Source: Candidatus Eiseniibacteriota bacterium (GTDB lineage: Bacteria; Eisenbacteria; RBG-16-71-46; JABDJR01). From it: a DNA stretch of 64,000 nt. The notes under the pieces are model-generated. The model had not been told where the DNA came from. It ran no database searches and saw only the letters and a list, made by a program, of their open reading frames with translations. A program made the translations under genes and the position numbers. Positions 18,873-29,599 of the stretch are shown in pieces (the first letter of the stretch is position 1; every line of letters starts with the position of its first letter). The stretch is from NCBI GenBank assembly GCA_963783375.1, contig CAWANH010000028.1, forward strand, positions 864,001 to 928,000. Direction: 5' to 3'.

Positions 18873-21200
18873 GTGGACCGGCTCCCCCCGGCGCGAAGGA
18901 TGGGATCATGGAACTGGCTGGTGTGGTTGACATTGCATCTCCGGAGAGCCTCCCGGAACCCCGGTTCGGGGATCGGCTGGACGGCCTGTTCGGACCGGAG
19001 GCGGCTTACCCGGCCCGGGTTCTCCGGAGGGAGCGGGAAGAGCAGCGCCGCCGGGCTCGCGAACGAGTCCGGGAACCAGGCTCCAGCGGGAAGGGACCGG
19101 GCGCGCACCCGTGTCAAGTGCCGGCAGCTCGCCTGGCGCCTGCTCCACGCCGTCCGCGAGGCCCAGGCGGTCAGCCGCCGGCTGGAGGTTGCCCAGGGCG
19201 CGGCGCTCGGTGGGCTGCGCTCGGGCGACCGGTACCGGGATCTCGGCCATGTCCGGTTCGCCGATTCTGCCGGGAAGCGCTTCAGCTTCATCCCCGACCG
19301 CCCGTCGCCGGGTTGCAGTGCAGGACATCCTGGACCGGGTTCCCGCGGCGAGGCCCGCGTATCTCGAAGGGCGCGTAGATGCCAGCAAACTCCTGGCCCT
19401 CCGGCCGGTTCTCAACCCCGAGAACGCCCCGGTCTGGCTTGCCCTCGGCACGAAGCTCACCGTGCGCCGACTCGCGGCACGGACGGCGGAGACCGGCTCC
19501 GCTCCCGCCACGGCCCCCGACGATCTTGATGAGCCCAACCGAGGGAGGATTGCTTTTCCCGCGCCCCAGGCCGTCGGGTTCGCCTTCGAACATGCTCTCG
19601 AAACCGCCCAGCGGGTGCTCGGCTGGGATGCTCCACGCGACGAGTGCCTGGAGGCGATGCTGATGGAGTCGGATTCGTCGCTTCCCTGGCTCGCGGCGCC
19701 CCCGGAGGAGTCCGAGGCGGATCCGGCCGCCGCCGCCGCCCCGCACGATCGGAAACGGAAGGGCTCGGAGCGGGAGGTGACGGTCGGCGGCCTGGGCCCA
19801 GGCCGGGCGGCTCCCCTGGGCGGATCGCGTGGCCGGTCACGCCTCCCGGGCGCGACGTTCCCGTGCGCCGGGGGAGCCTCCCCCCGGCGGCCCGGGCGGA
19901 GCGCGACCCTGGTCGCCCTCCTATCACCGATGGGATTACAAGCGGGCCAAGAACACGTTGAGGGCCCTGGAGCGCAGGCTTCGACGCATCCATCGGCTGA
20001 CCCGGGAGACCGGCCCGTGCGCGGGGAGCGCCGTGCCCGCAGCGGACCCGGAGGGTGGACGGTTCCCGGTGCCGGCGCGGGCGCTTCTCGATCGGTACCG
20101 GGCTCTCGAAGGCGAGGTTCGGCCGCTCTTCGCGCTCCAGGCCCGCGCGCTGGTGCATCTCGATACCCTGGATGCCCCGGCCCTCGTCGGTCTCCCGCAC
20201 CTGGGGGAACTGGGCGCGCGTCTCCTCGGGCTCTCGGAGCGCGCCACCTGGGATCGGTTTCACGCTGGCTTCGCCTTCCAGTACGGCCGACTCCTCGCCG
20301 ATCGGTACGTCCGCGGCGAGGTCGGGCTGGGCCACGTGCTGCCCCTGGCGGGACGAGGGGACCTGGACACCGGGCCATGATCGAACGGGCCCGCTCGGTC
20401 ACCTATCGCCAGTTCCGGCGGGAGACTGCGCTTCCTTGGGCGGCTGAGCCTCGTCGGGTTCCGATGGACGTCCTTCTCCCGGGGTGATCACCGACCCCGC
20501 GGTCGAAGGCCGGCTCCAAAGGCGGCTCGCCCGGGCCGGTTGGTCGACCACAGACATTGAGCGCCGCCTGGACGAGCGGGGGCTCGGTCTCGCCCTCGGG
20601 GTCTTCCCTGGACCCGGCCGAGAACCCCCTCCGGATGGCGCGGCTGGAAGCACTCCTGGACCTCGCGATCCTGGCCACCTGCCGGGAGCCTGACGAGGCC
20701 GAGGAGCTGCTTCGCGGCCGGAAAACGTTGTCCGCCCCCGGCCGCCACCACCGCGTGGTGGTCTGGGCCCGTCCCGGGATTCGTGCCCGCTGGGAGCGGG
20801 CGTGCCGGGCGGTTCGACGGCGGGACGGACGGCTGCCCGACTGGGCGGCGGCCGTGGTGGTGTCCTGGGAGGCGCTGGATCAGTGGACGCACCTGGATCC
20901 CGGCCGCCTCCCCACCGAACGACGGACCCTGGAGCGTGACGGCTGGAGGTGCCGGGTTCCGGGCTGCGGGGCGCGCCGAAACCTCGAGGTCCACCACATC
21001 GTATTCCGCTCCCGTGGCGGTTCGAACGCGTCCTGGAACCTCGTCACGCTCTGCCACGCCCATCATCATCACGCGCTTCACCGAGGCACCCTCCGCGTGA
21101 CCGGCCGGGCGCCCTGCGCGCTTGACCTGGGAGATCGGCTGTTCCCCGGATGCCGCGCCGCTCTGGACCTACCGTGGCGAACGGCTCGTGCGCCGTCCGG
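18873..21200 (+). pseudogene. Large HNH endonuclease (DUF222-like N-terminal region + C-terminal HNH), multiple frameshifts
   Basis: 'ERDGWRCRVPGC....LEVHHIVFRSRGGSN..WNLVTLC.AHH' HNH motif at ~20930-21070; coding-like segments spread over several frames; TTGACG-N17-TAGTAT at 18837-18865 upstream. Confidence 0.6.
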
Positions 21201-21314
21201 TCAGGGGCGGATCGCGCATGCCGCCCGGGCGAACTCATCCCCGCGCTCCGTCTCCCCCCCGCCGGGCTCGCCCACCGGGCCGCGCGATGTAGGCTTCTGT
21301 CACTCCGGTGACCC

Positions 21315-21410
21315 GAAATCCGAGTCCGAGGCTCGGCCCGCAATCCCGGACCGAATCCCGAGTCCGAAACCTGATCCGAATCCGAATCCCGCGAGACCCG
21401 AACCCAACCG
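21315..21410. repeat. Degenerate hexamer (ATCCGA-like) repeat tract
   Basis: aatccgagtccgag...aatcccggaccgaatcccgagtccgaaacctgatccgaatccgaatccc. Confidence 0.5.
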
Positions 21411-21428
21411 AGAGGAGTCCCCATACCG

Positions 21429-22217
21429 GTGCGCGCTTCGATCCCCCACTTTCCGGTCCTGCCGCTTTCGTCTCCGTGCTTCTGGCCGCCCTGCTGTTGG
21501 GCGCCATGCCCCGTGCCGCCCAGGCCCAGATCCTGAACACCCTCCGGGGGTTCAAGGAGAACGAGCCGGGGTGGAGCGGGATCATGGACGCTTCCTTCAG
21601 CGCCACCGGCGGAAACACCGAGGTTCTCTCCCTCGCCGGGAGCGGCCAGGTTCAGTACCGGGTCGCCCGGGAACGGTTCCGACTTCATCGCCAGCGGCGC
21701 CCGGAAGACATCCCGCGGCGCGGCCATCGAGGAGCAGAGCGCGGCTCACCTGCGCCACAACCACCGGGTGAGTTCCTGGTTGAGCTCGGTGGCCTTCGTC
21801 CAGCACCAACGAAACCCGTTCCAGCGGCTCGAGACCCGGTTTCTCTTCGGGCTCGGCGCCCGGTTCGACGTGATCCGGGAAACGTCCTGGCGGCTGTCTC
21901 TCGGCGCCACCCCCATGCTCGAGCTCGAGAAGATCAAGAATCAGTCCGGGACCGACGCCGACTCCCGCATCTCCACCTTCGCGGTGATCGACGGCCGGCT
22001 GAACGACCTGGTGACCCTTCAGCTGACCGGCTTCGTCCAGCCCCGCATCTCCGACTTCGGCGATCTGCGAGCCATGACCACCGGCGGGGTCCGGGTGAAG
22101 CTCGGAGGGGCGCTCTCGCTCACCGTGGCCTCGGACGTGGAGATCGACACCCGGCCGCCGGCCCGGGTGAAGAAGACCGACTGGGAAGTGACCACCGGAC
22201 TGGGGATTTCGCTCTAG
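21429..22217 (+). CDS. DUF481-like outer-membrane beta-barrel protein, frameshift near 21682, start uncertain
   Basis: Signal peptide 'LLAALLLGAMPRAAQAQILN'; 'SFSATGGNTE', 'AHLRHN', 'FVQHQRNPFQRLETRFLFGLGARF', terminal 'TTGLGISL'. Confidence 0.7.
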
Positions 22218-22314: not shown

Positions 22315-22348
22315 AAAAAAAGCGGCGGACGCCGATGTGGCGTCCGCC
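22315..22348 (-). terminator. Rho-independent terminator downstream of DUF4382-like gene
   Basis: Perfect 10-bp stem GGCGGACGCC/GGCGTCCGCC (22324-22348), 5-nt loop, A7 at 22315-22321 (U-tract on minus strand). Confidence 0.8.
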
Positions 22349-22409: not shown

Positions 22410-23282
22410 CTAACCCTTGTGGCCGTTGCCCCCTCCATTGCCCCCGCCGTTCCCGTGCTGGGCCCCGTTGTTCCCGCCGTCGTCATGCCCGAATTGGGAG
22501 TCATGGTCGTGGTCGTGGGAACCCCACGCCCCGTGGAGCACCGGCTTGATCTTGAAGTTCCCGCTTCCGGGAGGCGCCTCCACCACCGACTTGTCCAGAT
22601 CGAACACGATCACGATGTCGGTCACCTGACCGTCGGACACGGTGAAGGGGAAGATGACCTTGAGCATGTCGTTGTTTCCGGGAACGTCCGCCCTGATCGA
22701 GTCTCCGGCCTGGGTGACCACCCACCCGTCGGCCACATGGAGGGCCAGGTGGCTGTAATCGCCCTGGGGAAGCTCGAGGGTCCCCAGGAACTCGGAGAGC
22801 GTGGTGTCGAGGCCGGCCAGGTTGACCGTGACCGGGTCGGTGAGGACCTCGACGGCGCCGCAGTCGGCGTGGGTGCTGTCGTCCCCGCCCCCGGTCGAGT
22901 CATGGTCGTCGTGGAGAAAGCTCAACCCGTTCCACCGTTTGGCGGCGGACGTGGAGTCCTCCTCCTCACCGGTGGTGTCGTCGTCCGCGCTGTCCTCGCA
23001 AGCCGGGTAGACCCGGATGGAATCGAAGGTGATCCAGACCGCCGAGATGGGGGTGCGGTCGGAACCGAGTGGGTGGACGCCCATCGTGGCCGCGGCGTTC
23101 ACCGAGCCCACCGTGTTCAGGGAAACCGCGAGAAGTCCCATCCCCGAACCGGCGGGGGGAGGGGAGAACACGTTCCCCGGAGCGGCGGGGTTCGAACTCG
23201 AGCCGCAGCCGACCAGGCCGGCCCCGACCGCGAGAGTTAATGCGCTGGCAATCAATAGCTTACCAAGAAATCCCGATTTCAC
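22410..23282 (-). CDS. DUF4382-like lipoprotein with His/Asp/Gly/Asn-rich tail
   Basis: GTG start after GGAGGG; lipobox 'LVGC'; 'VWITFDSIRV', 'LPQGDYSHLAL.V', 'IVIVFDLDKSVV...G...KIKPVL'. Confidence 0.75.
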   Translation of the reverse strand: MKSGFLGKLLIASALTLAVGAGLVGCGSSSNPAAPGNVFSPPPAGSGMGLLAVSLNTVGSVNAAATMGVHPLGSDRTPISAVWITFDSIRVYPACEDSADDDTTGEEEDSTSAAKRWNGLSFLHDDHDSTGGGDDSTHADCGAVEVLTDPVTVNLAGLDTTLSEFLGTLELPQGDYSHLALHVADGWVVTQAGDSIRADVPGNNDMLKVIFPFTVSDGQVTDIVIVFDLDKSVVEAPPGSGNFKIKPVLHGAWGSHDHDHDSQFGHDDGGNNGAQHGNGGGNGGGNGHKG

Positions 23283-23381
23283 GAATGCACCCTCCTTGTA
23301 TCCAGGGGCGTGCAAAGCCAACCGATCCGCATCGCGTTCGTCAGCTTCGATATGGGGACGGCCCGGACGGTCTCAGGCTTG

Positions 23382-23407
23382 GACGGTATCGTCACCCAGA
23401 GGTTACA
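23382..23407 (-). promoter_or_regulatory. ECF-type promoter TGTAAC-N16-CGTC (drives DUF4382-like lipoprotein)
   Basis: Minus strand TGTAACCTCTGGGTGACGATACCGTCCAAG. Confidence 0.75.
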
Positions 23408-23581
23408 CCACAACCTGCCCCGGCGTTCCAAGTCCTTGAAAATGGTACAATTCACCCATCGGTGGAACCCTCCCCGAACCTCCGCGGTTCCAGTTCAGGG
23501 AACCGCGACCGGCGGGACCGCCCGTCCGGCCGACCTATGTCCCCGGGGATTTCCGCTTTAGCCCCGCCCGCGCGTCGCACC

Positions 23582-23607
23582 TGTAACCACGGGATCATCG
23601 AGCCGTC
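23582..23607 (+). promoter_or_regulatory. ECF-type promoter TGTAAC-N16-CGTC (autoregulatory, upstream of ECF sigma operon)
   Basis: TGTAACCACGGGATCATCGAGCCGTCAAAG. Confidence 0.75.
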
Positions 23608-23695
23608 AAAGAAGACGAAGACAGACGGCTCTGGACCAGATCGTCCCCCCGGTCTAAGCGAGCGAGCATCGTTCGAACCGCGATCCGGGGGGGAC

Positions 23696-24340
23696 GTGAG
23701 CGAGCAAGGCCGTCCATTGACGGAGCATGATCAGGGGCGACGGAAGCCGAGAGGCATCGCCCCGCTTGAGATCGATGAAGAGCGAGATCTGCTGGAGCGG
23801 ACCCGGCGGGGCGACACGGCTGCCTACACCCGCCTGGTTCGCCTGCATCAGGATCTCATCTTCGGCCTGGTCTCCCGGATGGTGCGGGACGCGCATCTCG
23901 CGGAGGAAGTGACCCAGGACGCCTTTCTCAAGGCCTACCGGGCGCTCGACACCTTCCGCGGGGATGCCCGGTTCGCCACGTGGCTCTACCGGATTGCGGT
24001 GAACCTGTGCCGGGACCATAGCGGGAACCCGACTTCGAGGCTCCGCCGGATGGAGACCAGCCTGGAGGGGGCCGGGGCGATGGGAGTGGACCCTCCCGCC
24101 CCGCACCCCCGGCCCGACGAGGCTCTGGAGGCCGGGCAGGTGGCCGATGGGTTCCAGGCCGAGCTGGACGCTCTCGACCCGATCTATCGCGAGGCTTTCC
24201 TGCTCCGGCATCAGGAAGGCCTGGGTTACGAGGAAATCGCCGGGATCCTCGAGATCTCGGTGAGCAACGCCAAGGTGCGGGTGCATAGGGCCCGGGAGTC
24301 CATTCTGGGCGCGCTCCGGCGCCGAGGTTTCGAGGTCTAG
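23696..24340 (+). CDS. ECF RNA polymerase sigma factor (sigma-70 family, RpoE/SigW-like)
   Basis: 'GD.AAY..LV..HQ', 'AEEVTQDAFLKAYRAL..FRG.ARFATWLYRIAVN' region 2; 'YEEIA.IL.IS..N.KVR.HRAR' region 4; start uncertain. Confidence 0.92.
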   Translation: MSEQGRPLTEHDQGRRKPRGIAPLEIDEERDLLERTRRGDTAAYTRLVRLHQDLIFGLVSRMVRDAHLAEEVTQDAFLKAYRALDTFRGDARFATWLYRIAVNLCRDHSGNPTSRLRRMETSLEGAGAMGVDPPAPHPRPDEALEAGQVADGFQAELDALDPIYREAFLLRHQEGLGYEEIAGILEISVSNAKVRVHRARESILGALRRRGFEV

Positions 24341-24372
24341 GCCCCCTCGGGGGGCGGGACATCGCAGACATC

Positions 24373-25122
24373 ATGAACGACGAATTCGAAAGCGACCGGG
24401 TGAATCCCCGGTTTCATGAGTACCTGGATGGGGAGCCGCCTCCGTCGAACCCTGCTGCCTTCGAGGGGGACCTGCGGACCGGGAAGCTCCTGCGGAACCA
24501 GTTGAACACCATGTGCCGCATCGAGGCCTGGTTCCGGTCTACCCGCTCGCGGGCCCCATCCTCTCTGGCCCGGGCCGTGGAACGCGCCTTGGAGGTCGAG
24601 CGCGCCGTCCCGGCCCGGGCCAGATCCTCTTCCCGGCTCCGGTTGCTTCCATCGCTTCCGGGCCAGGGGTGGCTCCGGTGGGCCTGGGTGCCCGCCGCCG
24701 TTGCCGCCCTGATCGTGGTGCTGGTTGCCATCCCCCAGGATCGCGCAAAGAACCGCTCCGGCGACACCCGGTCGCCGGAGCGCGCGATCTTCTCCCAGCC
24801 CACCTCCGGCGGCGATCTGGCCGCCGGCCTGGACGGGAACGAAAAGCCTCCGAACGCCTCCTCCGGTGCGGTATCCTATAGGTTCGTCATACGGGCTCAG
24901 GATGCCTCTCAAGTCTGCCTTGCCGGGGACTTCAACCAATGGAGGGTGTGTGAGGCGCCGATGCGGCGCGTCGGGGAGGACCTCTGGTCTCTGTCCGTGA
25001 ATCTCCAGCCGGGTCGCTACGAGTACATGTTCGTGGTGGACGGCCGATGGGTGACCGATCCCAACGCCATCGCCCACGCCGACGATGGTTTCGGGAATCG
25101 GAACGCCGTGCTGCTCCTCTAG
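24373..25122 (+). CDS. Putative anti-sigma factor with C-terminal CBM48/AMPK-beta glycogen-binding (E-set) domain
   Basis: Cytoplasmic 'FHEYLDGE' anti-sigma-like start, single TM 'WVPAAVAALIVVLVAIP', then 'ASQVCLAGDFNQW...W...L.PGRYEYMFVVDG.WVTDP...DDGFGNRNAVL'. Confidence 0.8.
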   Translation: MNDEFESDRVNPRFHEYLDGEPPPSNPAAFEGDLRTGKLLRNQLNTMCRIEAWFRSTRSRAPSSLARAVERALEVERAVPARARSSSRLRLLPSLPGQGWLRWAWVPAAVAALIVVLVAIPQDRAKNRSGDTRSPERAIFSQPTSGGDLAAGLDGNEKPPNASSGAVSYRFVIRAQDASQVCLAGDFNQWRVCEAPMRRVGEDLWSLSVNLQPGRYEYMFVVDGRWVTDPNAIAHADDGFGNRNAVLLL

Positions 25123-26471
25123 TCCCCGCCGGGCTCGTTTTCCTCGCCCTGGCCGTTTCGGGACTCCTGTCCGCCGGTCCCGCCGCCGCCGCTCCCGAAA
25201 CCCGCCTGAGCCTCGACCTTGCCGCCGGCCACGACGACCAGGTCCTGGCCAGCCAGGACCTCGGCGTGATCTCGCCGGTATCCGAGGGCTACTTCACCGG
25301 GACGAGCCGGCTGTTCCTTCGATGGGCCTCCGCCCGAAGCTCCCGGCGCCTGGATCTGACCGCCCGGGCCTCGGGAACGAGCTACGGCTCCAAGGTGAGC
25401 GGCAACGACTCGGATCTTCGTCTGGCCGCCCGTTATCGGCAGGGCCTGGGTTCGAGACTGGCGCTGGACACCGCCGTCGCCGGTTGGCGATATCGCCGTG
25501 AAGAGTCGGCCGTCTTCGATCTCGATCTCCTTCGAGGAGAGACCCGGTTGGGATGGACCCCCGGGCCGGGCTGGCTCGTCAGCCTAGGCGCCCGCTACAA
25601 CCACAGCGCGTATCCGCACCGATATCTTCCCGCCGACTCAACCCGGCATGAGGTGCAGCGGCCCTTCGACGTCGTTTTCGGGGTGGTGCGCGGCGTCGGC
25701 CGGACCGGGTACCTGAGCGCGGAGGCGAGCTACCGGTCCGCCTCCTCCAATGCCCCCCGCTCCCGCTACCTGGGGCCGATCTTCGTCCTCCGGTCGGGGA
25801 CGCAGATCTTCCTGCGGATCTCCCTTTCCGGCTACGTCGTTTACGGGAACCGGGACTACCGGGATTCGGGGGTGCTCCTCGCGGTCGGCGGTACGGCCGG
25901 GGACTCCGTGGGCACCCGTCGGGACGAGGCCTGGCAATTCGGCCTGGCCATGGAACGGCCGGTGGCGAATCGGGTGCGGCTTTTCCTGGATGGGAACTAC
26001 CTGATCCAGGACTCCAACGCCTCGTTCGCCGACTTCAACCAGGCCCAGGTCTCGATCGGGATCTCGGTGGATCTGGTGACGATCGGGAGAGCCAGGGACA
26101 GGGAGCTGCCGGAATCGGTCAGCTCACCCACCGCTCCGCTCATCTCCGGAGACCGGGCCCGTTTCCGGGTCCTCGCTCCCGGAGCGCAATCGGTCTCGGT
26201 GGTGGGGGGGTTCAACGGGTGGGATCCCGAGCGGAACCCGCTTTCGGGCCCGGACCGGGACGGGCTATGGGAGACGTCCCTGACCCTCCACCCGGGGATC
26301 TGGCGGTACGCCTTCGTGATTGACGGCGTCTGGACGGTCCCGCCGGATGCCCCTCGCTACGAGGCCGATGGCTTCGGAGGCCAAAACGGGGTGATCGACG
26401 TCACCGGGGGCGGGTCCGACGCGCCTGTAACCGGGGACGACTCCACCCGTCCAAGGCAGCAAAGACGGTGA
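25047..26471 (+). CDS. Predicted outer-membrane beta-barrel protein with C-terminal CBM48/AMPK-beta glycogen-binding domain
   Basis: Signal peptide; ~300 aa of amphipathic beta-strands ending 'AQVSIGISVDL'; then 'AQSVSVVGGFNGW...WET.L.L.PG.WRYAFVIDG.W..PPDA..YE.DGFGGQNGVI'. Confidence 0.75.
   Translation: MGDRSQRHRPRRRWFRESERRAAPLVPAGLVFLALAVSGLLSAGPAAAAPETRLSLDLAAGHDDQVLASQDLGVISPVSEGYFTGTSRLFLRWASARSSRRLDLTARASGTSYGSKVSGNDSDLRLAARYRQGLGSRLALDTAVAGWRYRREESAVFDLDLLRGETRLGWTPGPGWLVSLGARYNHSAYPHRYLPADSTRHEVQRPFDVVFGVVRGVGRTGYLSAEASYRSASSNAPRSRYLGPIFVLRSGTQIFLRISLSGYVVYGNRDYRDSGVLLAVGGTAGDSVGTRRDEAWQFGLAMERPVANRVRLFLDGNYLIQDSNASFADFNQAQVSIGISVDLVTIGRARDRELPESVSSPTAPLISGDRARFRVLAPGAQSVSVVGGFNGWDPERNPLSGPDRDGLWETSLTLHPGIWRYAFVIDGVWTVPPDAPRYEADGFGGQNGVIDVTGGGSDAPVTGDDSTRPRQQRR
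26426..26451 (+). promoter_or_regulatory. ECF-type promoter TGTAAC-N16-CGTC (upstream of exported protein 26573)
   Basis: TGTAACCGGGGACGACTCCACCCGTCCAAG. Confidence 0.75.
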
Positions 26472-26572
26472 CATGAAAGGAGTTGGCCGAACCCGGCGCA
26501 GTGCGCTAACCTTTAGCTGCCGTTGGTGTTGGCGCCGCCGGGCTATGTGCTGGCTCTGAAGGGAATACCGCC

Positions 26573-27595
26573 ATGAACCTGAAGAGGTCCTCTTTCTCCA
26601 TGAATGGCCGAAGGCTGGTCGGCTTGGCCGCGACCGCTTTGCTGGTTCTCGGATCGGCTCCGGCCCTGGCCGGGGACGGCGCCCCGGGCGGCGCGCCGTC
26701 CGGGGCGGCCCATGATCTGGCGCTCAGCCGAGCCCTGGCTCTCCATGCCGCCTCCCCCGAGGCCCCGACCTTGAACGCCGCGGTCAAGGATGCGCTCGAC
26801 GCCGGGGTTGGGCCCGACCTTCTGGCCGAGGTCCTGACCCGCTCCGCCGAAGAGGCGCTTCCCGACTCCGACCTGCTCCTCATCGTGGATCATGCCACCC
26901 GGCTTGCCCGTCGGGATCTCCCGGCGGGGCCGGTGGTCAGCCGCTACCTTCAGGGATTGTCCAAGGGGGTGCCATTTCCCCGCATCCAGGCGGTGACCGA
27001 TGAACTGGACACCCGCCTGGCCACGGCGGCCCGACGGGTCGACGCCTCCCTACCCACCCCCACCGACGCGGCGCTGCGCCGGGCCCGCCTTGCCGCCATC
27101 GACTACGGAGCCTACGCCTTGAGCGTCGGCGTCTCGGAGGCTGCCTTCGACCACTCCCTGGGACTGGTGGCCGATGAACCGCGCCCCCTGGAGGCGCTGC
27201 AATCCCCGCTTCTCACCATGGGCGTTCTGGTCTCCTCCGGGGTGGCTTCGGCCAAGTCGATGGAAGTGGTGGACATGGCCTGGAAGCGCGGCTTCCGCGG
27301 TGAGAACCTGGAGCGGCTGGGGAAGGCAGTGGGTCGCCTCAGCCGGGAGGAGGGCTCTTCCTCCAATTTCATGGGTCGGATACTGGCCATGATCGACGAT
27401 TCCTCCCAGGAGCGGGTATTCCAGGGGCTCGATGAATTGATCGGCCGTACCGAAGGGGGGCGCGGCAACACCACCATCGGCCCCGGCGAGGACCCCGGAA
27501 ACCGCCGGGTCCCGGGAGACCGGCCCATCAATCCCGGCCCCGGGAAGCACGAGGGCCAGCAGGACCAGCCCAGAGACGGGAGCGGAACCAACTGA
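26573..27595 (+). CDS. Exported alpha-helical hypothetical protein
   Basis: Signal peptide 'LVGLAATALLVLGSAPALA'; 'YLQGLSKGVPFPRI' motif; G/P-rich disordered tail. Confidence 0.7.
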   Translation: MNLKRSSFSMNGRRLVGLAATALLVLGSAPALAGDGAPGGAPSGAAHDLALSRALALHAASPEAPTLNAAVKDALDAGVGPDLLAEVLTRSAEEALPDSDLLLIVDHATRLARRDLPAGPVVSRYLQGLSKGVPFPRIQAVTDELDTRLATAARRVDASLPTPTDAALRRARLAAIDYGAYALSVGVSEAAFDHSLGLVADEPRPLEALQSPLLTMGVLVSSGVASAKSMEVVDMAWKRGFRGENLERLGKAVGRLSREEGSSSNFMGRILAMIDDSSQERVFQGLDELIGRTEGGRGNTTIGPGEDPGNRRVPGDRPINPGPGKHEGQQDQPRDGSGTN

Positions 27596-27787
27596 TTTGG
27601 GCCGGGATCGCCCGGCTGCCTCGCACGCCATCCCCCCCGGGCGGCCCGTTGATGGGGCCGCCCGATCCTTTTCCGGACCAGCTGAACCCGCTCCGGCACC
27701 GGCCGTCCCCTTGCGGTATGATGCAGATCAGCCGCCTTTCCGGTAGTCCCCGGGGATGAGGGCACCGGGGGCAGGGAGGTAGGGTCG

Positions 27788-28171
27788 TTGCCCACCATTC
27801 TCCTGGTCGAGGATGATCCAGCTGTTCGGAAGATGCTCGAAGTCCTGGTGCGGAGCGCGGGCTACGACGTTCTGATCGCGGCCCGCGGGGACGAGGCGCT
27901 GCGGATCCTGGACCGGGTTTCGCCGGAGATTCCCCCCCCGGTCGATGCCCTGGTCACCGACGTCATCATGCCCGGGGATCTCGACGGCGCCGAACTCGCC
28001 CGCCGCTTCAGGGAACGTTTCCCCGGTCTCGGGGTGGTTTGCACCTCGGGTTTCGTGCGCGATGCTCTCAGCGACACCTCCGAGCTTCCCGAGGGAGCGA
28101 TCTTCCTCCAGAAGCCCTTTTCGGCGGAAGATCTCCTGGATGCCCTGATCCGGGTGATTCCCCATGGCTGA
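27788..28171 (+). CDS. Single-domain response regulator receiver
   Basis: 'ILLVEDD', 'LVTDVIMPG', 'TSG', 'FLQKPF'. Confidence 0.85.
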   Translation: MPTILLVEDDPAVRKMLEVLVRSAGYDVLIAARGDEALRILDRVSPEIPPPVDALVTDVIMPGDLDGAELARRFRERFPGLGVVCTSGFVRDALSDTSELPEGAIFLQKPFSAEDLLDALIRVIPHG

Positions 28172-28378
28172 CGGGGTCGAGCGCGCCCGACTCTCCGGCA
28201 GCCGGAAAGGGGGGTCCAAGAACCCGAGGCGGTTCTGGTACACTGAGTGGCCGTTTCCCCCGCTGGCGGTCTTTCCGCATCCCGCAACGGTCGACCGGGG
28301 GTATCGCTACGAGACGCGAGCGCGCCGGCCGGGCCGCGTCGCCGCGCCCATTCGTGACCCAGGAGGAAATCAGAGCCG

Positions 28379-29599
28379 ATGGCCCTAGACGTGATGCTCG
28401 CCCGCGCCCAGTTCCCGGCGCTCTCGAGTGAATGGATCTTCATGGATAACGCCGGCGGGACCCAGGTTCCGCTCCAGGTGGCCGACGCCATGCGCGACTA
28501 CCTGCTTCACACCAACGTGCAGTTGGGGGCGAGCTACGAGGTTTCGAAGAAATCGGGGGAGGCGGTGTGGAATGCTCGCCGGCTGATGGCGGACATGATC
28601 GGAGCCGTGCCCGACGAGATCATCTTCGGGGCCAACACCAGCCAGCTCCTCCGCATGCTGGCCATGGTCCTCTCCACCCGCTGGGAGCCCGAGGACGAGG
28701 TCATCATCTCCCAGGCCGAGCACGAGGCCAACGCCGGCTGCTGGGAGTACCTCGAGCAGTTCGGCATCGTGGTCAAGACCTGGGAGATCGACAAGGAAAG
28801 CTACACCTTCGAGATCGACCGGCTCACCGACCTCCTGTCCGAGCGCACCCGGCTGATCGCCGTTCACCACTCCAGCAACATCCTCGGCAACGTGATGCCG
28901 ATTCGGGACGTGGTGAAGCTGGCCAAGGGCTCGGGAGCGATGGTCGTGGTGGACGGGGTGGGCTACGTCCCGCACCGGGCGGTGGACGTGAGAGACCTGG
29001 ATGTGGACTTCTACGTCTTCTCCAACTACAAGGTTTTCGGCCCCCACATGGGGGTCCTCTATGGCAAGGCCGAGCGGCTGAAGCAGATGCCCCGCTGGAA
29101 CCACTTCTTCATCGGCGAGGACGAGGTTCCGGGGAAGTTCGAGCTGGGGTCGGGCCAGTACGAGGGCGCGGCCAGCCTCCTGGGTCTCGAGAAGTACTTC
29201 CGGGCCCTGGGAAAGGCGTTCACCGCCCCCATCAAGAGCGTGTTCGGCGACGTCTACGAGGACATCCAGGCTCACGAGGGCCGGCTGACCCGCGATCTCC
29301 TGACCTTCCTCAACAAGCACCCCCGGGTCCACGTGGTGGGCGAGTCCGATCCCCGGCGCCTCGAGGATCGCCTCCCCATCGTCTCCTTCGTGGTCGATGA
29401 AGCCGACCCCGAGGAACTGGTACTCGAGGTGGACAAGGCCAAGGTCGGGATCCGCTGGGGTCACTTCTACGCGGTCCGCCTCCTCGACGCTCTGGACCTT
29501 CTCCAGTACAAGGGAGTGGTGCGGGTGAGTCTCGCCCACTACAACACCGAGAACGAGTTGGCGCGGCTCAAGGACGTGCTGGGGCCGCTGATCTCGTAG
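28379..29599 (+). CDS. Cysteine desulfurase-like PLP protein (aminotransferase class V)
   Basis: 'FMDNAGGTQVP', 'HEAN', 'VVDGV.YVPH', 'FSNYKVFGPH'; 'GHFYA' in place of the SufS 'GHHCA' motif. Confidence 0.88.
   Translation: MALDVMLARAQFPALSSEWIFMDNAGGTQVPLQVADAMRDYLLHTNVQLGASYEVSKKSGEAVWNARRLMADMIGAVPDEIIFGANTSQLLRMLAMVLSTRWEPEDEVIISQAEHEANAGCWEYLEQFGIVVKTWEIDKESYTFEIDRLTDLLSERTRLIAVHHSSNILGNVMPIRDVVKLAKGSGAMVVVDGVGYVPHRAVDVRDLDVDFYVFSNYKVFGPHMGVLYGKAERLKQMPRWNHFFIGEDEVPGKFELGSGQYEGAASLLGLEKYFRALGKAFTAPIKSVFGDVYEDIQAHEGRLTRDLLTFLNKHPRVHVVGESDPRRLEDRLPIVSFVVDEADPEELVLEVDKAKVGIRWGHFYAVRLLDALDLLQYKGVVRVSLAHYNTENELARLKDVLGPLIS

What the first reader, a model, noticed from the sequence alone, without database searches (positions are those of the whole stretch)
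22410..27595. Candidate trans-envelope signalling system: ECF sigma + CBM48-tipped anti-sigma + CBM48-tipped outer-membrane barrel + two exported proteins
Seen: an ECF sigma (23696-24340) is followed by a single-TM protein with an anti-sigma-like 'YLDGE' N-terminus and a C-terminal CBM48/AMPK-beta glycogen-binding domain. Next comes a signal-peptide beta-barrel protein ending in a second copy of that domain (both have 'G.FN.W...W...L.PG..Y.FV.DG.W...DGFG..N.V'), then an exported helical protein. A DUF4382-like lipoprotein is divergent. Known: CBM48/E-set domains normally bind glycogen or alpha-glucan, and cell-surface signalling (FecI/FecR/FecA type) normally uses a TonB-dependent receptor. 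Inference: this is a TonB-independent relay in which paired extracytoplasmic E-set domains either sense alpha-glucans or dock with each other to couple the outer membrane to sigma release. No glycosidase or sugar transporter lies in the module, so a pure envelope-signalling role is also possible.
Basis: partly seen in the sequence, partly recalled or inferred. Interest (0 to 1): 0.88.

Follow-up and report, generated by a model that had tools for sequence, protein, structure and literature searches.

The report
Sigma switch with repurposed starch-binding domains
This is a real, widely conserved bacterial gene module in which a predicted self-activating sigma factor sits beside its likely membrane brake, an outer-membrane barrel and an unnamed secreted helical protein; the two starch-binding-type domains lack a key sugar-binding residue and likely serve as protein docking sites rather than glycogen sensors.

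Summary
Observation confirmed. Genes: ECF sigma; one-pass anti-sigma with RsiW/RseA-type N-terminus and CBM48-like tip; predicted 14-stranded barrel with a second CBM48-like domain; exported 13-helix solenoid (HELIX); divergent DUF4382 lipoprotein. Three TGTAAC-N16-CGTC promoters tie them together (3 found, 0.14 expected).

The sigma plus CBM anti-sigma pairing is already described in silico (ECF278s1, 'could be sensing glycogen'); no experiment was found. The barrel fusion is in 36 of 80, and in 0 of 34 Desulfobacterota regions found by HELIX alone. All five genes occur in 9 of 80.

No module CBM keeps AMPK's K126 (0 of 57 in the unbiased set), whereas 7 of 7 other CBM48s in this genome do. 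No glucan genes carry the promoter. Best reading: an RseB-like, HELIX-gated envelope sensor using exapted CBM48 folds. Binding is untested; the complex predictor was unavailable. The scan reported this module four times before on other DNA. New variant of a known kind.

The parts
22324..22348 (-). Terminator-like hairpin after the DUF4382 gene
   Evidence: 10-pair stem plus T-run; consensus match only (5 sites found in the region, 2.9 expected in shuffles)
22410..23321 (-). DUF4382 lipoprotein (likely start GTG 23282; lipobox LVGC; His/Gly-rich tail); predicted target of the sigma; lineage-limited
   Evidence: PF14321 E 5e-16; in 10 of 80 related loci by my profile plus L067 by Pfam
23382..23407 (-). 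ECF-type promoter TGTAAC-N16-CGTC facing the DUF4382 gene
   Evidence: same site before DUF4382 genes in related loci
23582..23607 (+). ECF-type promoter TGTAAC-N16-CGTC before the sigma gene (predicted autoregulation)
   Evidence: in 12 of 14 Eisenbacteria-type loci; best score in the genome
23696..24340 (+). ECF sigma factor, 214 aa
   Evidence: PF04542, PF08281; TIGR02937 above cut-off
24373..25122 (+). Anti-sigma factor: zinc-free class I anti-sigma domain, one TM helix (103-121), about 45-aa linker, CBM48-like domain with W190 (=AMPK W100) and W226 (=W133) but M219 in place of K126
25047..26471 (+). Outer-membrane protein: signal peptide, predicted 14-stranded barrel, C-terminal CBM48-like domain (W392, W429; A422 in place of K126), predicted periplasmic; start codon uncertain
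26426..26451 (+). Third ECF-type promoter, inside the 3' end of the barrel gene, facing the HELIX gene
   Evidence: in 11 of 13 Eisenbacteria-type loci
26573..27595 (+). HELIX: exported 13-helix alpha-solenoid with low-complexity tail; unnamed family, constant third member of the module
27638..27664 (+). Terminator-like hairpin after HELIX
   Evidence: 10 G-C pairs plus T-run; consensus match only

Best explanation
This is a predicted self-activating ECF sigma module whose membrane anti-sigma carries a CBM48-like tip lacking the glycogen-binding lysine, and which is likely gated by the co-encoded periplasmic helical protein (HELIX) binding that tip, in the way RseB or MucB guards its anti-sigma. 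Steps: (1) the N-terminal domain holds the sigma (inferred from homology). (2) HELIX docks on the anti-sigma's CBM-like domain and shields it from proteolysis (inferred from co-occurrence; untested). (3) The second CBM-like domain, here fused to the periplasmic end of an outer-membrane barrel, offers a competing or bridging site for HELIX, so the state of the barrel or envelope shifts HELIX off the anti-sigma (inferred, weakest step). (4) Site-1/site-2 proteolysis frees the sigma (by analogy; M50 proteases are present in the genome). (5) The sigma transcribes itself, the lipoprotein, a few other exported proteins, and extra HELIX from its own promoter, closing a negative feedback loop (promoter motifs shown; activity predicted). 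The signal is most likely envelope or export status, not glycogen.
For: Core composition: sigma in 79 of 80 and HELIX in 74 of 80 loci found by the anti-sigma; five of the six without HELIX end within 0.9 kb. Reciprocal search by HELIX alone: a CBM gene in 33 of 34 and a sigma in 31 of 34 Desulfobacterota regions.
Binding site: K126-equivalent in 0 of 38 anti-sigma CBMs and 0 of 19 second CBMs of the HELIX-selected set; W133-equivalent kept in only 9 of 38. K in 0 of 37 barrel CBMs and 0 of 27 stand-alone ones, against 7 of 7 other CBM48s in this genome, four of them on a GH13 amylase. K126 and W133 are named as critical for AMPK glycogen binding (PMC4032982, passages).
Promoters: 3 in the window against 0.14 expected; 60 sites in 82 sequences against 6-11 in simulated DNA and 3-15 at other spacings. 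HELIX has its own promoter in 11 of 13 Eisenbacteria-type loci.
Outputs: no strict site before the amylase or the other CBM48 genes. Neighbours differ by lineage but are often exported proteins: DUF4382, DUF5666 and CarboxypepD_reg proteins, and thioredoxin-like proteins with multiheme cytochromes. M50 proteases are in the genome.
Against: In the window and its close kin both tryptophans of the glucan platform are kept (W190/W226; W392/W429), and W100 is kept in 38 of 38. Plant AKINbeta2 lacks K126 and N150 yet bound starch in vitro, and Ostreococcus starch-binding domains have Val there, so loss of the lysine is not decisive. The barrel's top fold match is CymA, recalled as a cyclodextrin channel. 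One of 52 scanned flanking genes in the first set is a GH57 glucanase directly upstream of the module (L035). Only 52 of 155 and 49 of 97 flanking candidates were scanned, chosen by eye. The HELIX promoter may simply make up for distance: in Gemmatimonadota it is seen in 10 of 17 barrel loci, 0 of 11 without, and in 0 of 17 loci with a short second CBM. The direction of HELIX's effect (brake or activator) is not constrained by any result.
Confidence: 0.5

Rival explanations
1. Alpha-glucan sensor (the ECF278s1 proposal and the first reader's first option): malto- or cyclodextrins enter through the barrel and bind the anti-sigma CBM, releasing the sigma.
For: Both domains pass the curated cut-offs of CBM_48 and AMPK1_CBM and keep both tryptophans in this lineage. 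The top barrel match is CymA, E 8.7e-8. Lys-less starch binders exist. The genome has a four-CBM amylase. One GH57 neighbour. RsgI anti-sigmas sense polysaccharides through CBMs (abstract starts).
Against: K lost in every module CBM examined, W133 lost in 29 of 38 in the unbiased set. No promoter before the amylase. No glycoside hydrolase among gene clusters shared by 3 or more loci. CymA identity is 8-9% and OmpG scores almost equally. The module is in Nitrospira, recalled as nitrite oxidisers rather than starch users.
Confidence: 0.18
2. Sensor of another periplasmic glycan or small ligand (for example an envelope-derived sugar), with HELIX as co-receptor and a reshaped CBM pocket.
For: W100-equivalent and the DxFG..N motif stay nearly invariant. 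Met at the Lys position is fixed in 108 of 109 matched close homologues, which suggests a selected surface.
Against: That position varies freely (A, S, V, N, M, L, T, F) in the wider family and W133 is mostly lost, which fits poorly with one small ligand.
Confidence: 0.14
3. Direct CBM-CBM docking between anti-sigma and barrel couples the two membranes; HELIX is only an output.
For: Both domains are predicted periplasmic. The anti-sigma linker here is about 45 residues. 63 of 80 loci have two CBM genes. Where the second CBM is separate, an unrelated barrel lies upstream in 14 loci.
Against: At least 9 well-flanked loci and 19 of 33 CBM-bearing Desulfobacterota regions have one CBM only but keep HELIX. 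Anti-sigma linkers are only about 15-20 residues in Gemmatimonadota-type relatives.
Confidence: 0.1
4. A Slam-like export unit with a built-in regulator: the barrel moves the DUF4382 lipoprotein to the surface, HELIX stands in for Slam's TPR domain, and the sigma reports cargo backlog.
For: 14 strands, as in DUF560/Slam (PMC8406197 passages). The nearest named Atlas clusters are SlipAM at 0.95 with 181 shared features. A co-regulated lipoprotein lies next door in many loci.
Against: SlipAM matches only 4 of 35 members, best E 0.025; BBP2_2 matches 19 of 35. No TbpB_B_D domain was among the Pfam matches of the lipoproteins scanned. HELIX persists where no barrel is adjacent (33 of 34 Desulfobacterota regions by profile).
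Confidence: 0.08

Closest known systems
ECF278, subgroup s1 (Casas-Pastor et al. 2021, PMC7826278, supplement part 29 of 36 read whole)
   Same: ECF with a +1 single-TM anti-sigma bearing the AMPK glycogen-recognition domain in the periplasm. Desulfobacterota relatives found here through HELIX carry the ECF278s1 promoter type (GTGAC / YGTA) before the sigma in 8 of 9 loci of one clade.
   Different: The entry has no studied member and mentions no HELIX, second CBM, barrel or lipoprotein. The window's promoter is GTAAC/CGTC. Its sigma falls in a separate clade (support 98 versus 95) and is 32-37% identical to that Desulfobacterota clade, no closer than to an unrelated paralogue at 37%. Glycogen sensing is doubted here.
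E. coli RpoE-RseA-RseB and P. aeruginosa AlgU-MucA-MucB (mechanism recalled)
   Same: Autoregulated ECF, zinc-free class I anti-sigma domain (profile hit to RseA, E 6.8e-5), co-encoded soluble periplasmic protein.
   Different: The anti-sigma ends in a folded CBM48-like domain. The periplasmic partner is an alpha-solenoid with no match to RseB in the fold searches. A dedicated barrel carries a paralogous domain.
FecI-FecR-FecA cell-surface signalling (recalled)
   Same: Sigma, single-pass regulator and outer-membrane barrel in one operon.
   Different: 14 strands with no plug domain instead of a 22-stranded TonB-dependent receptor; periplasmic domain at the C-terminus; no FecR domain; the barrel is dispensable in many loci.
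Clostridium thermocellum SigI-RsgI (search listing and abstract starts only)
   Same: Anti-sigma factor tipped with a carbohydrate-binding-type module.
   Different: Different sigma and anti-sigma families; RsgIs control cellulosome genes, whereas no glucan gene carries this promoter.
Slam / DUF560 type XI secretion (PMC8406197, passages)
   Same: 14-stranded barrel next to lipoprotein genes; feature-level likeness.
   Different: No fused TPR domain, no TbpB_B_D cargo seen, Pfam SlipAM match weak.
ECF277, ECF231 and ECF120 (same supplement)
   Same: ECF277 and ECF231 use HEAT-repeat solenoids on or beside the anti-sigma; ECF120 and ECF231 have a TGTAAC -35 box; ECF120 has an outer-membrane protein at +2.
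   Different: No CBM48-like domains are described there; HELIX has no HEAT match in Pfam.

Membership tests
ECF sigma with class I anti-sigma | Sigma with regions 2 and 4 only | tested here: met
ECF sigma with class I anti-sigma | +1 gene with N-terminal anti-sigma domain and one TM helix | tested here: met
   family profile hits RsiW E 1.8e-11, RsrA, RseA; TM 103-121
ECF sigma with class I anti-sigma | N-terminal domain binds and inhibits the sigma | not tested
   no complex model or assay
ECF278 (s1) | +1 single-TM anti-sigma with periplasmic AMPK glycogen-recognition domain | tested here: met
ECF278 (s1) | Promoter GTGAC (-35), GTATA (-10) | tested here: not met
   window has TGTAAC-N16-CGTC; met by Desulfobacterota relatives in 8 of 9 loci
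ECF278 (s1) | Sigma sequence scores within the group's HMM or clade | tested here: inconclusive
   group HMM and named members not on hand; a quick tree puts the window sigma in a separate clade, with the joining node at support 80
CBM48 / AMPK glycogen-binding domain | Sequence family match above cut-off | tested here: met
   PF16561 and PF02922 in both proteins
CBM48 / AMPK glycogen-binding domain | W100 and W133 aromatic platform | tested here: met
   kept in both window domains; W133 lost in 29 of 38 distant anti-sigma CBMs
CBM48 / AMPK glycogen-binding domain | K126 | tested here: not met
   M219 and A422 in the window; 0 of 57 in the HELIX-selected set
CBM48 / AMPK glycogen-binding domain | Binds alpha-glucan | not testable with these tools
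   needs a binding assay
TonB-dependent cell-surface signalling (FecIRA) | 22-stranded plugged receptor with N-terminal signalling domain, and FecR-type regulator | tested here: not met
   14 strands, no plug, C-terminal CBM; no FecR domain; definition recalled
Slam / type XI secretion | 14-stranded barrel | tested here: met
Slam / type XI secretion | DUF560/SlipAM domain | tested here: inconclusive
   4 of 35 members, best E 0.025; Atlas likeness 0.95
Slam / type XI secretion | N-terminal TPR domain and TbpB_B_D cargo | tested here: not met
   barrel starts right after the signal peptide; no TbpB_B_D match in DUF4382 or scanned neighbours
RseB/MucB co-anti-sigma | RseB fold | tested here: inconclusive
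   the HELIX model is all-helical; RseB is not listed in fold searches, which does not by itself exclude a family
RseB/MucB co-anti-sigma | Binds the periplasmic part of the anti-sigma | not tested

The most novel reading that the evidence does not exclude
The CBM48 fold has been exapted into a protein-docking module, and HELIX, an unnamed family of more than 3,000 clusters at 50% identity, is a two-site clamp that bridges the anti-sigma's copy and the barrel's copy. This would be a TonB-independent trans-envelope relay in which a Slam-like 14-stranded barrel reports its own assembly or lipoprotein traffic directly to a sigma factor.
Probability: 0.15. Interest if true: 0.85.

Novelty: new variant of a known kind. 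Interest (0 to 1): 0.57.

Why it matters
ECF278s1 is on record as a possible glycogen sensor on the strength of a domain name. The binding-site decay, the missing glucan outputs and the constant third gene argue that this label is likely wrong, and name the missing component. HELIX is a large unannotated family (3,056 representatives at E<=1e-10) with no close solved natural fold, tied to one signalling module across at least nine phyla by record titles. If it gates the anti-sigma, it is a new RseB analogue and a clear case of a carbohydrate-binding fold turned into a protein interface. The predicted promoters make the system directly testable in a laboratory strain.

Tried and rejected
- Inter-protein covariation (MI-APC on 110, 79 and 83 paired loci): top scores 5.3, 5.0, 4.3, no higher than shuffled pairings. 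The alignments are too shallow to say anything.
- Fused forms of HELIX: none among longer proteins (weak test). One 523-aa barrel-HELIX join among the best 150 representatives (P0223) has a truncated barrel and lacks the CBM, so I read it as a deletion or misassembly, not a fusion.
- HELIX fold: no Foldseek match at E<=0.001; best VIA Z 9.7 (rmsd 5.9, 187 aligned) to a designed cage, first natural match exportin-4 Z 8.1 (rmsd 13.6, 243 aligned), both within background for helical repeats. Atlas best 0.89, unnamed. Pfam T2SSF in 11 of 71 members is weak.
- CymA likeness as evidence of cyclodextrin uptake: rejected; 8-9% identity and OmpG nearly ties.
- Invariant Met in the first 80 loci: partly built in by the search pattern, so the HELIX-selected set was used instead.
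- Wider regulon: off-locus promoter hits in 15 related genomes were near the reversed-pattern control counts; only one target recurred.
- RNA: contigs of a relative in one metatranscriptome cover the sigma, and one begins at 23629, 22 nt past the -10 box; contigs cannot show starts or strand, and no silent control was laid.
- No loci in viral contigs. The metagenome scan did not run on the HELIX alignment.
- Literature searches with no paper on this module: 0 hits; 1 listing each, unrelated by title, not read.
- Sigma tree: only the quick tree finished; monophyly of module sigmas is neither shown nor excluded.


Full report
OBSERVATION. The sigma has regions 2 and 4 only. The next gene has one TM helix (103-121) and a C-terminal AMPK1_CBM/CBM_48 domain. 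A profile of 33 N-termini matches RsiW at E 1.8e-11, then RsrA, RseA and ChrR, so it is a class I anti-sigma domain, here without zinc ligands. The third gene folds as 14 strands followed by the second CBM (pLDDT 85.6), with CymA and OmpG as best matches at 8-12% identity. With an even strand number the C-terminal CBM should be periplasmic (general rule, recalled). The fourth gene (HELIX) folds as 13 helices (pLDDT 97.5). The divergent gene is a DUF4382 lipoprotein. The closest named relatives are labelled Candidatus Eisenbacteria.

PROMOTERS. TGTAAC-N16-CGTC occurs three times in the window, against 0.14 expected, and none of 100 shuffles reached 3. The sites face the sigma, the lipoprotein and, from inside the barrel gene's 3' end, HELIX. 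Over 82 sequences (80 related loci, the genome's second copy, the window region) GTAAC-N16-CGT occurs 60 times, against 6-11 in simulated DNA and 3-15 at other spacings. It lies before the sigma in 12 of 14 and before HELIX in 11 of 13 Eisenbacteria-type loci. Gemmatimonadota loci use GTGAC-N17-CGT (20 of 30 before the sigma). Nitrospira and Vicinamibacterales loci show TTTAC-N16-CGTC further upstream, ahead of a separate barrel gene. That the sigma reads these sites is inferred.

WHAT IS CONSERVED. A scan with the anti-sigma alignment confirmed 399 of 453 candidate stretches, and the best 80 were kept. Of these 80: sigma 79, HELIX 74, two CBM genes 63, barrel-CBM fusion 36, DUF4382 10 (plus one by Pfam), all five genes 9. 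Five of the six without HELIX end within 0.9 kb of the last module gene. Where the second CBM stands alone, 14 loci have an unrelated barrel just upstream (PF13557 in 8 of 9 scanned). The reverse search, by HELIX alone, hit 38 of 401 sampled genomes of the phylum of L084 (Desulfobacterota by its title). I fetched 34 regions from 32 genomes, leaving out the five weakest hits and L084's own genome. A CBM gene was in 33, a sigma in 31, a second CBM in 14 and a barrel by my profile in 1. HELIX was also in 41 of 201 genomes of the window's phylum, 7 of 7 in its family; these overlap with the 80 loci and kin are not independent. The family has 3,056 representatives at E<=1e-10 and no fitting Pfam model. 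The core is therefore sigma + anti-sigma-CBM + HELIX; second CBM, barrel and lipoprotein vary.

THE CBM-LIKE DOMAINS. Aligned to AMPK beta, both window domains keep W100 and W133 but replace K126 (M219; A422). W100, K126, W133 and N150 are named as critical, confirmed by mutation (PMC4032982, passages). In the first set no module CBM has Lys: 0 of 76 anti-sigma, 0 of 5 anti-sigma-like, 0 of 37 barrel, 0 of 27 stand-alone (2 Arg). All 7 CBM48s elsewhere in this genome have it: four on a GH13 amylase and three in a cluster whose neighbours I did not examine. Because the search pattern contained the Met, I repeated the count on the HELIX-selected set (34 regions plus 5 from the own phylum): Lys in 0 of 38 and 0 of 19; W133 kept in 9 of 38; W100 in 38 of 38. 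Against over-reading: AKINbeta2 lacks K126 and N150 yet bound starch, and Ostreococcus domains have Val there (PMC4625611, passages).

OUTPUTS. The strict promoter occurs five times in the genome: three here, one on a duplicate contig and one before a 230-aa exported protein. That last site recurs before the orthologue in G020 and G027, so 3 of 4 same-genus genomes have it. None lies before the amylase or the other CBM48 genes. Flanking genes (52 of 155 and 49 of 97 candidates scanned, picked by eye) include DUF4382, DUF5666 and CarboxypepD_reg proteins, and in one Desulfobacterota clade thioredoxin-like proteins with multiheme cytochromes. One GH57 gene lies directly upstream in L035.

MECHANISM. 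Shown: domain content, predicted folds, co-occurrence, promoter motifs, loss of the lysine. Inferred: sigma inhibition by the N-terminus; HELIX docking on the anti-sigma tip as an RseB analogue; the second CBM as a competing or bridging site; proteolytic release (M50 proteases present); feedback through extra HELIX. I put this at 0.5, alpha-glucan sensing at 0.18, another ligand at 0.14, direct CBM-CBM docking at 0.10 and a Slam-like exporter at 0.08. For the last, the barrel's nearest named Atlas clusters are SlipAM (0.95), but Pfam support is weak (4 of 35, best E 0.025; BBP2_2 19 of 35). No interaction was modelled, since the complex predictor was unavailable. An earlier scan note (e1-6563678) says the domain is predicted to grip the helical protein. 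I had reached that idea before seeing it and could not check its prediction, so it is not counted as support.

WHAT IS KNOWN. [quoted passage not shown] That entry lists no studied member and no further conserved genes. One clade of the Desulfobacterota regions has that promoter type before the sigma in 8 of 9 loci, which links the HELIX module to ECF278s1 by inference. The window's sigma is in another clade, with another promoter and 32-37% identity to that clade, so it works like ECF278s1 but is not filed as a member. The quick tree leaves open whether the module has been paired with more than one sigma lineage. Searches found no paper; two gave one unrelated listing each; most subscription papers are outside the library. 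RseB/MucB, FecIRA and CymA functions are recalled. Slam features come from passages of PMC8406197, RsgI from abstract starts.

VERDICT. Real, conserved and uncharacterised; a new variant of sigma/anti-sigma/periplasmic-partner signalling. What remains valuable is the unnamed HELIX family, the evidence against the glycogen label, and ready-made promoters for a test. Interest 0.57.

Noticed in passing
L002 (G000:C29 about 1,482,400-1,486,700): A second copy of the module in the same genome (order sigma, anti-sigma-CBM, HELIX, barrel-CBM), with a divergent CarboxypepD_reg lipoprotein. The sigma and barrel frames are broken (sequence error or decay). Its CBMs have Ser and Cys at the lysine position.
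   Followed up: partly
G000:C26 versus C28:874,559-887,543: Contig C26 repeats the region left of the module at 84-98% identity and ends just past the DUF4382 promoter; probably a strain variant.
   Followed up: partly
L116:3232-3981 (-), G000:C28 near 542,847: Exported protein of about 230 aa without a Pfam match, ending in SWGRVKSLYR, with the module's promoter upstream in 3 of 4 same-genus genomes. The tail resembles a sorting signal recalled from related phyla.
   Followed up: partly
L117:735-3599: S8 protease with Ig domains and a FlgD/T9SS-like C-terminal domain, behind a weaker promoter match (score 16.8, within background).
   Followed up: partly
L158, L162, L165, L167, L171, L172, L174, L180: Desulfobacterota variant with order sigma-HELIX-anti-sigma, divergent thioredoxin-like genes and, in several, multiheme cytochromes downstream; some have a promoter before the anti-sigma gene.
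   Followed up: partly
L019:9604-10284, L043:3156-3758: A second, more distant HELIX paralogue in the same locus; in L043 it has its own promoter.
   Followed up: no
L001 (G000:C28 about 146,300-151,600) and L003: Three clustered genes with lysine-bearing CBM48 domains, and a GH13 amylase with four; the likely true alpha-glucan system of this genome.
   Followed up: partly
window 21308-22217: A DUF481-type barrel gene that is whole in L005 (E 7.8e-25) appears split over two frames here.
   Followed up: no
window 20557-21771: ORF holding an HNH-endonuclease-like stretch (by eye, motif recalled), amid ORFs that look frameshifted.
   Followed up: no
window 27788-29599: Stand-alone receiver domain and a class V aminotransferase follow the module; the aminotransferase is also downstream in four related loci.
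   Followed up: no
L207 (G006:C24): A promoter match precedes a lipoprotein with Spy/CpxP-like repeats (by eye, motif recalled).
   Followed up: no
window 26426-26451: The conserved-looking tail of the barrel protein (VT...RP/RQ in many relatives) is the reading of the embedded promoter, not a protein motif.
   Followed up: yes
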